Source of the DNA: Escherichia coli
GTDB taxonomy: Bacteria; Pseudomonadota; Gammaproteobacteria; Enterobacterales; Enterobacteriaceae
Direction: 5' to 3' (one strand)
Assembly (NCBI RefSeq): GCF_002854065.1
Contig: NZ_CP024147.1
Length of the DNA: 64,000 bases
The translations under genes and the position numbers were made by a program. Of the stretch, positions 29,443-32,445 are shown piece by piece. Under the pieces are notes generated by a model. It saw nothing but the letters and a program-made list of their open reading frames with translations, was not told the origin of the DNA and searched no databases. Position 1 is the stretch's first letter. The number at the start of each line of letters is the position of its first letter.

Positions 29443-29794
29443 AGCTCAACCTCCTGCCGCGCTAAAAAACCTGTAACTTCAGTCACTTTAATAGTAAGAC
29501 AATCCTTAACCTCTGGCAATTTTTGCTAAGCATCAATGAAAACAGCATGTTAAATGCAAGACTGTTGTGTACGGAAAAATATTTACTTTGCACGATTAAT
29601 AATCAGTAGCTGAAAGCAGTCAGCGAGTGATAAAGTACAGATACCGCATTCATGCTCCTCGTGGTTATGTCCTGACTAGTCTTTACACTCTTTACAGGAA
29701 CCATTGTCGTACATGATGGCCTAATCAATTGAGTGTACCGCTGTCGACATGGAATCTTCTGCGATACAACAATTCGTATCTACAGAAGGTAACT

Positions 29795-30715
29795 ATGTTT
29801 CCACAATGCAAATTTTCCCGCGAGTTTATGCATCCTCGCTACTGGCTCACATGGTTTGGGCTTGGTGTACTCTGGCTTTGGGTACAGCTTCCTTATCCTG
29901 TTCTCTGCTTTCTCGGCACGCGTATTGGCGCAATGGCGCGACCATTCCTGAAACGGCGTGAATCTATCGCCCGTAAAAACCTGGAACTTTGCTTCCCGCA
30001 GCATTCTGCGGAAGAACGCGAGAAGATGATTGCCGAAAACTTTCGTTCACTCGGCATGGCGTTGGTAGAAACCGGCATGGCGTGGTTCTGGCCAGACAGT
30101 CGCGTACGTAAATGGTTTGATGTTGAAGGGCTGGATAACCTTAAACGCGCACAAATGCAAAATCGCGGCGTAATGGTTGTCGGCGTCCATTTTATGTCGC
30201 TGGAACTGGGCGGCCGCGTGATGGGACTTTGTCAGCCAATGATGGCTACCTATCGTCCACATAATAATCAGCTGATGGAATGGGTGCAGACCCGTGGTCG
30301 CATGCGCTCTAACAAAGCGATGATCGGCAGAAATAATCTGCGCGGCATTGTCAGTGCACTGAAGAAAGGTGAAGCGGTATGGTTTGCTCCCGATCAGGAT
30401 TATGGTCGTAAAGGCAGCTCCTTCGCGCCGTTCTTTGCGGTAGAAAATGTCGCCACAACCAATGGCACCTATGTTCTCTCCCGTCTCTCTGGCGCAGCCA
30501 TGTTGACCGTAACGATGGTAAGAAAAGAGGATTACAGCGGATATCGTTTGTTCATCACCCCAGAGATGGAAGGCTACCCGGCAGATGAAAATCAAGCCGC
30601 TGCCTATATGAACAAGATTATCGAGAAAGAGATCATGCGCGCACCGGAGCAGTACCTCTGGATCCACCGTCGCTTTAAAACGCGCCCGGTGGGAGAATCG
30701 TCGTTATACATTTAA
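29795..30715 (+). CDS. lpxP: Lipid A palmitoleoyl acyltransferase (cold-induced LpxL paralog)
   Basis: 306 aa from ATG at 29795 (MFPQCKFSREFMHPRYWLTWFGLGVLWLWVQLPYP...). The ORF-track start at 29729 is an extension. Confidence 0.9.
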   Translation: MFPQCKFSREFMHPRYWLTWFGLGVLWLWVQLPYPVLCFLGTRIGAMARPFLKRRESIARKNLELCFPQHSAEEREKMIAENFRSLGMALVETGMAWFWPDSRVRKWFDVEGLDNLKRAQMQNRGVMVVGVHFMSLELGGRVMGLCQPMMATYRPHNNQLMEWVQTRGRMRSNKAMIGRNNLRGIVSALKKGEAVWFAPDQDYGRKGSSFAPFFAVENVATTNGTYVLSRLSGAAMLTVTMVRKEDYSGYRLFITPEMEGYPADENQAAAYMNKIIEKEIMRAPEQYLWIHRRFKTRPVGESSLYI

Positions 30716-31070
30716 CAAACTGCTCTGACTCTTTACCTCCTCACATAAGCCATAATAACCTCATGGTTTTTATGGCTTTTTTCTTAAGGTTTTTTCCTTC
30801 GCTGAATCTCTAATTATTACCGTCAGAAATTAAACTGTCGCCGATATGAGACACCTGTAAGTTACTAAAAGTAAATAAGAAAATGCCTCTTGTCTCGTTT
30901 CAGTTTTAGGCGTACATTAGCGCCGTCTCGAGCAGTTTAGCTCAGAATTCTGGGGTGATGCCCACGGTAAAATACAGGACTTTTAAGGTCGTTTTGCCCG
31001 GTGTCAACTCACTGTATCAGGTGTAATGAAGTCATTCAGGCGTAACAGCAATTACGCGGAGAGATGTAAA

Positions 31071-31142
31071 GTGAAATATTTCTTTATGGGCATTTCTTTT
31101 ATGGTCATCGTTTGGGCCGGTACTTTTGCCCTGATGATCTAA
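31071..31142 (+). CDS. ypdK: Very small membrane protein (23 aa, GTG start)
   Basis: GTG AAA TAT ... ATC TAA encodes (M)KYFFMGISFMVIVWAGTFALMI, recalled as K-12 YpdK. Below the ORF-track length cutoff. Confidence 0.6.
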   Translation: MKYFFMGISFMVIVWAGTFALMI

Positions 31143-31206
31143 AAGCAAACTGTGCAATGAAAAACAGGAGCCATCAGGCTCCTGTTTGCATTTCTGAGAT
31201 CGGTGT

Positions 31207-32445
31207 TTATTCCGCGTTTTCGTGAATATGTTTGCTGCTGGCGGGTAGTAAACCGTCGGCACGGAACATCGCTTTAATCCCACGAATCGCCTGACGAATA
31301 CGGTCGCGGTTTTCAATCAGTGCAAAGCGCACATGCGTATCACCATAGTCGCCAAAGCCAATCCCCGGAGAGACACAGACCTTCGCTTCGTTAAGCAATT
31401 TCTTGGCAAATTCCAGCGAGCCCATGGCAGCATACGGTTCCGGTATTTTCGCCCAGACATACATCGAAGCCTTCGGCATTTCGACCATCCAGCCCGCTTC
31501 ATGCAGCCCTTTAACCAATACATCACGGCGGCGTTTGTACTGTTCGGCAATGTCGCGCACGCACTGTTGATCGCCCTCGAGTGCCGCAATCGCCGCCACC
31601 TGCAACGGCGTAAAGGTGCCGTAATCGTGATAGCTTTTAATACGTGCCAGCGCACTGACCAGCGTTTTGTTGCCAACCATAAAGCCGATACGCCAGCCCG
31701 CCATGTTGTAGCTTTTCGACAGCGTAAAGAACTCGACCGCCACATCGCGTGCACCTGGCACCTGCATGATTGACGGCGCTTTCCAGCCATCGTAGACGAT
31801 GTCCGCATAGGCCAGGTCGTGGACCACCAGCACATCGTAGCGTTTCGCCAGCGCCACAACCTTTTCGAAGAACTCCAGTTCCACGCATTGCGCGGTTGGG
31901 TTCGACGGGAAGCCGAGGATCATCATCTTCGGTTTCGGATAACTTTCACGAATGGCGCGCTCCAGTTCGTTGAAGAAATCGACACCTTCCACCAGCGGCA
32001 CTGAGCGTACCTGCGCCCCGGCAATCACCGCGCCGTAAATATGAATCGGGTAGCTTGGATTAGGCACCAGCACCGTGTCGCCGTGGTCCAGCGTCGCCAG
32101 CATCAGATGCGCCAGCCCCTCTTTCGAGCCAATGGTGACGATGGCTTCTGATTCCGGGTCGATTTCAACGTCGTAGCGATCCTGATACCAACGGGAAATG
32201 GCGCGACGTAGCCGCGGAATGCCGCGTGAAGTGGAGTAACCATGCGTGTCCGGGCGCTGGGCCACAGTACATAATTTTTCGACGATATGCGGCGGAGTCG
32301 CACCGTCCGGGTTACCCATACTGAAATCGATAATATCTTCGCCGCGCCGACGCGCAGCCATTTTCAGTTCAGCGGTAATGTTAAAAACATAGGGCGGGAG
32401 ACGATCAATGCGCGTAAAGCGACGTTCAGGGCGAGTGTCAGCCAT
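31207..32445 (-). CDS. alaC: Glutamate-pyruvate aminotransferase (PLP-dependent class I aminotransferase)
   Basis: 412 aa with aminotransferase class I motifs (..[14 protein letters not shown]..). Confidence 0.9.

What the first reader, a model, noticed from the sequence alone, without database searches (positions are those of the whole stretch)
31071..31142. Tiny GTG-initiated membrane ORF between lpxP and alaC
A 23-codon hydrophobic ORF ((M)KYFFMGISFMVIVWAGTFALMI) lies in the intergenic region. It is below the 60-aa cutoff of the supplied ORF track, so automated calls would miss it. It matches the small protein YpdK as I recall it.
Basis: partly seen in the sequence, partly recalled or inferred. 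Interest (0 to 1): 0.2.

Follow-up and report, generated by a model that had tools for sequence, protein, structure and literature searches.

The report
Known small membrane protein gene ypdK
The 23-codon GTG-started ORF is real and is ypdK, an E. coli small membrane-protein gene already annotated in essentially every complete E. coli genome, so the finding is correct but not new.

Summary
The ORF is at window 31071-31142 (+) exactly as described: GTG, 22 codons, TAA, encoding (M)KYFFMGISFMVIVWAGTFALMI. It is ypdK (b4680). RefSeq annotates the same coordinates as 'membrane protein YpdK' (WP_010723117.1). The DNA is present in 5422 of 5426 complete E. coli genomes. The peptide scores 57.5 bits against NCBIfam NF033437 (cutoff 30).

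Selection acts on the protein. 75 of 80 loci anchored on AlaC, from Enterobacteriaceae, Erwiniaceae and Serratia, carry the ORF convergent to alaC. Third codon positions vary most, and pN/pS is 0.28 against 1.1 and 2.2 in the other frames. The start codon is GTG in all 76 loci.

Published K-12 data show a transcript starting about 148 nt upstream, a 3' end just after a terminator shared with alaC, and low ribosome occupancy.

I also found a conserved promoter-like element and a roughly 146-nt leader with hairpins supported by covariation. It has no Rfam match.

The protein's function is unknown. The most likely mode of action is a single-pass inner-membrane peptide that binds a larger membrane protein.

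Verdict: already known, low interest.

The parts
30890..30918 (+). Predicted sigma-70-type promoter of ypdK. -35 TTGTCT (30890-30895), 17-nt spacer, -10 TACATT (30913-30918), with an A/T-rich stretch upstream.
   Evidence: Read from the sequence. The core GTA(C/A/G)ATTAGC and the upstream TTGT are conserved across Enterobacteriaceae, with related forms in Erwiniaceae and Serratia. It matches 8 of 12 consensus positions, so it fell below the 9-of-12 threshold of the scan. It has not been mapped experimentally here.
30925..31070 (+). Predicted ypdK leader (5' UTR), about 146 nt, with three hairpins. H1 is 30926-30946. H2 pairs 30952-30962 with 31000-31010. H3 is 31040-31057 and directly abuts the Shine-Dalgarno sequence.
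   Evidence: A tiling-array transcript starts 148 nt upstream of ypdK in K-12 (PMC3009722 file S3). H2 and H3 have 96% of cells paired, 7 of 15 pairs with compensatory changes, and 0 of 500 shuffles reach the observed values. An H3 stem of at least 5 bp abuts GGAG in 43 of 47 distinct Enterobacteriaceae leaders, with many different arm sequences. H1 is a 5'-proximal hairpin with dG of -5 kcal/mol or lower in 83% of 65 leaders, with differing arm sequences. No Rfam family matches.
31058..31061 (+). Shine-Dalgarno GGAG, 9 nt upstream of the GTG.
   Evidence: CGGAG is invariant in the 36-sequence alignment. GCGGAG or AGGAG is visible in every locus.
31071..31142 (+). ypdK coding sequence: GTG start, 23 aa, TAA stop.
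31162..31187 (.). Bidirectional intrinsic terminator hairpin shared by the convergent genes ypdK and alaC (AAACAGGAGCC-AUCA-GGCUCCUGUUU). The ypdK mRNA 3' end is at about 31190.
   Evidence: Both strands fold, with z-scores -4.3 and -3.4. Term-seq lists a 'primary' 3' end for ypdK at K-12 2497040, which is 48 nt after the stop and corresponds to window 31190 (PMC7815308 supplementary file 1). The hairpin is conserved across genera.

Best explanation
This is ypdK, a genuine, monocistronic, protein-coding small gene of Enterobacterales.

Shown here:
- The 23-codon frame, its GTG start and its Shine-Dalgarno sequence are conserved under purifying selection on the amino-acid sequence.
- The gene ends at an intrinsic terminator shared with the convergent alaC.
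- In K-12 the transcript exists and carries ribosomes at a low level.

Inferred:
- The gene has its own sigma-70-type promoter about 146 nt upstream.
- Its leader folds into three conserved hairpins, the last ending exactly at the Shine-Dalgarno sequence.
- This leader, the invariant weak GTG start and the low measured translation efficiency (0.04-0.23) together suggest that synthesis is deliberately kept low or gated after transcription.

Inferred for the protein: one lysine at position 2 is followed by an uncharged hydrophobic stretch of about 20 residues. That fits a single transmembrane helix with the N-terminus in the cytoplasm. The invariant residues (Y3, M6, G7, S9, G17, T18, F19; W15 and M22 nearly so) include small residues suited to helix-helix packing.

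My best guess for the mechanism is that YpdK binds a larger inner-membrane protein within the bilayer and modulates it, as other E. coli small membrane proteins do. I put this at about 50%. The partner is unknown.
For: Identity:
- RefSeq annotates the CDS as ypdK at the same bases.
- The region is present in 5422 of 5426 complete E. coli genomes.
- NCBIfam NF033437 scores 57.5 bits against a cutoff of 30 over 23 of 23 positions.
- The exact peptide is named YpdK by NCBI and UniRef.
- The sequence is the same as K-12 b4680.

Coding selection:
- 75 of 80 AlaC-anchored loci carry the ORF.
- There are 69 distinct nucleotide versions but only 40 distinct proteins.
- Entropy at codon positions 1, 2 and 3 is 0.58, 0.19 and 1.13.
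- G7, S9, G17 and T18 are invariant, yet each is encoded by all four codons.
- pN/pS is 0.28, against 1.14 and 2.22 in the shifted frames.
- GTG is the start in 76 of 76 loci, and 30 of them have an in-frame stop at -6.

Expression in K-12:
- Ribosome footprints are 1.6-14 RPKM, with translation efficiency 0.04-0.23.
- mRNA rises by 1.55 log2 units at pH 5.8 without a rise in footprints (PMC10746267 Tables S3 and S8).
- A 3' end lies 48 nt after the stop (PMC7815308).
- A transcript starts 148 nt upstream and is induced by UV, log2 +1.06 (PMC3009722).
- That same paper cites ypdK as one of the 18 small ORFs of Hemm et al. 2008.

Leader structure.

Hydrophobicity: GRAVY 1.73, and K2 is the only charged residue.
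Against: - No function, partner, localisation or phenotype could be found in the papers available to me. The primary papers (Hemm 2008 and 2010) are not held.
- Ribosome occupancy is low.
- The only stable genomic neighbour is alaC, a soluble enzyme. The upstream neighbour differs between genera. Gene context therefore does not point to a partner.
- The conserved residues do not fall on one clean helical face.
- The promoter and transcription start are predictions, supported only by a tiling-array boundary.
Confidence: 0.9

Rival explanations
1. YpdK is a type I toxin-like peptide: a small hydrophobic membrane-damaging peptide whose translation is held down by a long structured leader and an antisense RNA, like Ibs, Ldr, TisB or ShoB.
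For: It is very short and hydrophobic. It has a long structured leader. Translation efficiency is low. The transcript is induced by UV, as tisB and dinQ are.
Against: - It is single-copy, with a median of one place per genome.
- It sits at one syntenic position across three families, which looks like vertical inheritance rather than the patchy, repeated distribution typical of type I systems.
- No antisense or divergent small RNA overlapping ypdK is annotated in K-12.
- The only minus-strand promoter-like site lies 230 nt upstream and points away from the gene.
- I did not see a LexA-box-like sequence by eye.
Confidence: 0.05
2. The conserved element works mainly as RNA, and the ORF is incidental. 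It could be a small RNA, or a transcript whose role is to terminate or antisense-regulate alaC.
For: The leader and terminator have conserved structure. The terminator is shared with alaC, and the two 3' ends overlap by about 30 nt.
Against: Within the ORF the substitution pattern is that of a protein. Variation is concentrated at third positions, invariant residues use all four codons, and pN/pS is 0.28 only in this frame. The start codon and Shine-Dalgarno sequence are invariant. No Rfam family matches. Ribosome footprints are present.
Confidence: 0.03
3. The ORF is a leader peptide (upstream ORF) that controls a downstream gene by attenuation.
For: Its size and intergenic position resemble those of leader peptides.
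Against: No co-directional gene follows it. A strong terminator and a mapped 3' end come 48 nt after the stop, and the next gene, alaC, is convergent. The peptide sequence itself is conserved, rather than only its length or particular regulatory codons.
Confidence: 0.01

Closest known systems
YpdK of E. coli K-12 (b4680, YP_002791250.1; NCBIfam NF033437)
   Same: The 72-nt coding sequence is identical, with the same GTG start, TAA stop and position between lpxP and alaC. The window's gene is this gene.
   Different: Nothing in the coding sequence differs. The window's intergenic DNA differs from K-12 at a few bases.
Small single-pass membrane regulators of E. coli (MgrB, AcrZ, MgtS, PmrR, KdpF, CydX). 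Comparison is from general knowledge.
   Same: It is under 50 aa and consists essentially of one hydrophobic helix. Like mgrB it starts with GTG (mgrB start codon from PMC10746267 Table S8). This is the class whose mode of action I propose for YpdK.
   Different: No partner is known for YpdK. It is not encoded in an operon with a membrane complex, unlike kdpF and cydX. At 23 aa it has almost no soluble tail with which to contact a partner outside the bilayer.
Type I toxins (Ibs, Ldr, TisB, ShoB). Comparison is from general knowledge.
   Same: It is a tiny hydrophobic peptide with a long structured leader and low translation.
   Different: It is single-copy, syntenic across three families, and has no cognate antisense RNA annotated.

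Membership tests
YpdK (NCBIfam NF033437, equivalog) | The profile HMM score exceeds the curated cutoff over the full length. | tested here: met
   57.5 bits against a cutoff of 30, E = 9.4e-16, residues 1-23 matched to profile positions 1-23 of 23.
YpdK (NCBIfam NF033437, equivalog) | Orthologous position: between lpxP and alaC in Escherichia, convergent to alaC. | tested here: met
   RefSeq feature tables agree. The convergent pairing with alaC is kept in 75 of 80 loci.
YpdK (NCBIfam NF033437, equivalog) | The reading frame and start codon are conserved under purifying selection. | tested here: met
   GTG in 76 of 76 loci. pN/pS is 0.28, against 1.14 and 2.22 in the other frames.
YpdK (NCBIfam NF033437, equivalog) | The protein is made and sits in the membrane. 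| not testable with these tools
   Published Ribo-seq gives 1.6-14 RPKM. The tagging experiments of Hemm et al. 2008 are cited by PMC3009722, but that paper is not held. Membrane location is inferred from hydrophobicity only.
Type I toxin-antitoxin | A cognate antisense or overlapping small RNA antitoxin. | tested here: inconclusive
   None is annotated in K-12 over ypdK. tpke70 lies further upstream, antisense to the end of lpxP. No minus-strand promoter-like site lies within or just downstream of ypdK. No strand-specific read data were examined.
Type I toxin-antitoxin | Multicopy or patchy, horizontally scattered distribution. | tested here: not met
   There is one place per genome at the median. 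The locus is syntenic across Enterobacteriaceae, Erwiniaceae and Serratia.
Type I toxin-antitoxin | Toxic when overexpressed. | not testable with these tools
   This needs an experiment.
Leader peptide / attenuator uORF | A regulated gene lies downstream on the same strand in the same transcript. | tested here: not met
   A terminator hairpin and a Term-seq 3' end lie 48 nt after the stop, and the next gene is convergent.
Known RNA families (Rfam 15) | A covariance-model match for the leader. | tested here: not met
   Only two sub-threshold chance hits (a plastid 3' UTR and a snoRNA) were found in 30500-31400.

The most novel reading that the evidence does not exclude
The conserved, structured leader of about 146 nt, the hairpin that ends exactly at the Shine-Dalgarno sequence and the never-replaced GTG start together form a previously undescribed post-transcriptional switch. 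This switch would gate YpdK synthesis in response to a signal. The rise in mRNA without a rise in footprints at pH 5.8 and the UV induction hint at stress control. YpdK would in turn tune a conserved inner-membrane protein, possibly linked to the neighbouring pyruvate genes alaC and pyrSR.
Probability: 0.15. Interest if true: 0.4.

Novelty: already known. Interest (0 to 1): 0.1.

Why it matters
The finding itself adds nothing new. ypdK has been catalogued since 2008 and current pipelines annotate it.

It is a useful positive control, because a reader working from raw sequence recognised a real 23-codon gene.

The side results may help whoever studies this still-uncharacterised protein. These are an invariant GTG start across three bacterial families, a tight pairing with alaC, and a conserved structured leader with no Rfam match.

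Tried and rejected
- The search for homologous proteins refuses queries under 40 aa. The representative search and structure prediction need at least 30 aa. The family's breadth was therefore assessed only through loci anchored on AlaC.
- Pfam has no family for the peptide. Rfam has none for the region.
- The primary papers and initiation-profiling papers are not held: Hemm 2008 and 2010, Weaver 2019, Meydan 2019, Thomason 2015.
- The Salmonella small-protein census supplements do not list ypdK.
- The consensus scan missed both the promoter and the terminator. The promoter matches only 8 of 12 positions, and I assume the terminator's T-tract fell short of the scan's rule.
- RNAalifold proposed a long-range pairing of GTACATTAGCGCC with the Shine-Dalgarno region. 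I rejected it because every one of those pairs is invariant, so there is no covariation. In addition, the 5' partner coincides with the predicted -10 element and would lie upstream of the transcript start.
- I first read the proximal conserved TCAGCTCTCTATACTCAG as a second promoter. Its 5' part (TCAGCTC) is better explained as the 3' arm of hairpin H2, which shows compensatory changes.
- The 38-aa version starting at ATG 31026 is rejected as the conserved product.
- Linkage with pyrS (ypdA) is frequent but not specific, and it is confounded by phylogeny.

Full report
OBSERVATION. Window 31071-31142 (+) reads GTG followed by 22 sense codons and TAA. It encodes (M)KYFFMGISFMVIVWAGTFALMI. It lies in the 491-nt gap between lpxP (ends 30715, +) and alaC (31207-32445, -). 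A GGAG lies 9 nt upstream of the GTG. The mechanical ORF list shows the frame open upstream to an ATG at 31026, which gives a 38-aa ORF.

IDENTITY. The 651 bases around the ORF match 5422 of 5426 complete E. coli genomes, and all 15 records listed annotate lpxP, ypdK and alaC there. In the best hit the CDS 'ypdK, membrane protein YpdK, WP_010723117.1' occupies exactly the bases that correspond to window 31071-31142. The 72-nt ORF alone is at least 99% identical in 4771 records and 95-99% identical in 652, and is annotated ypdK in all 8 records listed. The peptide matches the NCBIfam equivalog NF033437 'YpdK' over 23 of 23 positions, at 57.5 bits against a curated cutoff of 30. The exact sequence is named YpdK by NCBI and UniRef. 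K-12 MG1655 carries it as b4680 at 2496921-2496992, with the same 72 nucleotides. There is no Pfam family.

IS IT MORE THAN CHANCE? A short ORF proves nothing on its own. The window contains 364 ORFs of 20-30 aa, although only two are as hydrophobic as this one. I therefore fetched 80 loci from one-genome-per-species contigs, using the neighbouring AlaC protein as the query, so the sample was not selected for ypdK.
- 75 of the 80 loci carry a YpdK-like ORF. In nearly all it lies about 50-90 nt beyond the alaC stop and is convergent to alaC.
- One locus ends before the site. Four lack the ORF: Erwinia endophytica, Symbiopectobacterium, Lonsdalea, and a record labelled Pseudomonas resinovorans.
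- The carriers span Enterobacteriaceae, Erwiniaceae (Pantoea, Erwinia, Mixta) and Serratia.
- Among 69 distinct nucleotide versions there are only 40 distinct proteins.
- Mean entropy at codon positions 1, 2 and 3 is 0.58, 0.19 and 1.13.
- G7, S9, G17 and T18 never change, yet each is encoded by all four synonymous codons.
- Pooled pN/pS is 0.28 in this frame, against 1.14 and 2.22 in the two shifted frames.

This is selection on a protein, not on an RNA.

START CODON. The start is GTG in all 76 loci. A single G-to-A change would give a stronger start, and it is never seen. In 30 loci an in-frame TGA lies 6 nt upstream. The Escherichia-specific ATG at -45 therefore cannot be the conserved start.

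EXPRESSION, FROM PUBLISHED K-12 DATA.
- A tiling-array study lists ypdK among the 18 small ORFs of Hemm et al. 2008 and calls it a putative single-transmembrane peptide (PMC3009722). Its file S3 shows a plus-strand transcript that begins 148 nt upstream of ypdK and is induced by UV, log2 +1.06.
- Term-seq lists a 'primary' 3' end for ypdK at 2497040, 48 nt after the stop (PMC7815308). The entry occurs once among three growth conditions. By its position in the file it is probably in the M63-glucose sheet, which is my inference.
- Ribo-seq lists ypdK among 'previously known sORFs', with 1.6-14 RPKM of footprints and translation efficiency of 0.04-0.23. At pH 5.8 the mRNA rises by 1.55 log2 units (padj 0.003) while footprints do not rise. 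Translation efficiency changes by -2.6 log2 units (padj 0.09) (PMC10746267).

ANATOMY AROUND THE ORF. Downstream, both strands fold into an 11-bp hairpin at 31162-31187 with U-rich tails, with z-scores -4.3 and -3.4. It is conserved across genera. The mapped 3' end corresponds to window 31190. It is a bidirectional terminator shared with alaC, so ypdK is monocistronic and cannot be a leader peptide for another gene.

Upstream, the neighbouring gene differs between genera. It is lpxP in Escherichia, Salmonella, some Citrobacter and Enterobacter. Elsewhere there are unrelated ORFs that I did not identify by family search. In Pantoea and Erwinia it is what looks by eye like an MFS transporter plus membrane-fusion protein pair.

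Nevertheless a block about 150-160 nt upstream of the GTG is strongly conserved. It consists of an A/T-rich stretch, TTGT, and then 17 nt later GTACATTAGCGCC. I read this as a sigma-70-type promoter: TTGTCT at 30890, a 17-nt spacer, TACATT at 30913. That predicts a start near 30925 and a 146-nt leader, which agrees with the array boundary at -148.

The leader contains three hairpins.
- H1 (30926-30946) is a 5'-proximal hairpin. It is found with dG of -5 kcal/mol or lower in 83% of 65 distinct leaders, with quite different arm sequences.
- H2 (30952-30962 pairing with 31000-31010) encloses a variable insert.
- H3 (31040-31057) has a 3' arm that ends at the base before GGAG. 43 of 47 distinct Enterobacteriaceae leaders have a stem of at least 5 bp there, with arms such as GCGTA/TACGC, GCATA/TATGC, GCGCG/CGCGC and GCACG/CGTGC.

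On a 15-genus alignment, H2 and H3 together have 96% of cells paired. 7 of 15 pairs show compensatory changes, no shuffle out of 500 reaches the observed values, and slid controls give 28-49% pairing. Erwiniaceae and Serratia keep the promoter-like motif and the 5' hairpin but not H3. Rfam has no match. This leader is the only part of the analysis that I could not find described.

MECHANISM. What is shown: this is a conserved, translated, monocistronic small gene.

What is inferred for expression: the invariant weak start, the hairpin abutting the ribosome-binding site, the low translation efficiency, and the uncoupling of mRNA from footprints at pH 5.8 together suggest that output is restrained or gated after transcription.

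What is inferred for the protein: its only charged residue is K2, and the rest is hydrophobic. The simplest model is a single transmembrane helix with the N-terminus inside the cell. Invariant small and polar residues (G7, S9, G17, T18) and aromatic residues (Y3, W15, F19) would be available for helix packing. By analogy with other E. coli small membrane proteins, I consider binding and modulation of a larger inner-membrane protein the most likely action, at about 50%. Nothing here identifies the partner. The tight pairing with alaC may simply reflect how little DNA separates the two genes.

RIVALS. A type I toxin is the most serious alternative, given the tiny hydrophobic peptide, long leader, low translation and UV induction. 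However, the gene is single-copy and syntenic across three families, and no antisense RNA is annotated over it. An RNA-only function is contradicted by the codon pattern. A leader-peptide role is excluded by the terminator and the convergent neighbour.

VERDICT. The feature is already known and routinely annotated. Interest is low.

Noticed in passing
window 30890-31070: Upstream of ypdK there is a conserved promoter-like element and a leader of about 146 nt with three hairpins supported by covariation. The last hairpin ends exactly at the Shine-Dalgarno sequence. The leader has no Rfam match and I found no description of it in the papers I could search.
   Followed up: yes
window 31064-31069: In Escherichia an ATG is immediately followed by TAA (a 'start-stop') between the Shine-Dalgarno sequence and the GTG, out of frame with ypdK. 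The GGAG is only 2 nt from this ATG, so it is probably not used. Other genera have GATGA here, which supplies the in-frame TGA at -6.
   Followed up: partly
window 31026-31070: An in-frame ATG 45 nt upstream would give a 38-aa, positively charged N-terminal extension of YpdK. It occurs in Escherichia only. Whether E. coli uses it could be settled by initiation profiling.
   Followed up: partly
window 30790-30925, minus-strand site 30841 to 30813: The DNA upstream of the ypdK promoter is unusually conserved between E. coli and Salmonella. It holds a minus-strand promoter-like site (GCGACA, 17 nt, AATAAT) pointing towards lpxP. In K-12 the putative small RNA tpke70 is annotated antisense to the end of lpxP (Term-seq tables of PMC7815308). 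This site could be its promoter.
   Followed up: no
L002 about 4400-4487 (minus strand), compared with window 30963-30998: The E. coli strain representing the species in the genome collection lacks about 33 nt of the H2 insert. K-12 and the window both retain those bases. The apical part of H2 is therefore dispensable or variable within the species.
   Followed up: partly
L058 4554-7190 and L075 4448-7140 (minus strand): In Pantoea and Erwinia, ypdK lies 100-200 nt downstream of, and co-directional with, two ORFs that look by eye like an MFS transporter followed by a membrane-fusion (HlyD/EmrA-like) protein. No family search was run on them. A TGTGA-N6-TCTCA sequence resembling a CRP site precedes the ypdK promoter motif in Erwiniaceae and Serratia.
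   Followed up: no
window about 32457 (K-12 2498307, minus strand): Term-seq tables list a very abundant 'orphan' 3' end 12 nt upstream of the alaC start codon (39,893 and 64,902 average reads in two sheets). This suggests a processed or terminated RNA in the alaC leader.
   Followed up: no
L079: A contig labelled Pseudomonas resinovorans DSM 21078 encodes an AlaC 91% identical to the E. coli protein. That would be unexpected for a Pseudomonas and may reflect contamination or mislabelling.
   Followed up: no
window 29729-30715: The mechanical ORF for lpxP starts at a TTG and is 328 aa. RefSeq annotates 306 aa starting at the ATG at 29795.
   Followed up: no
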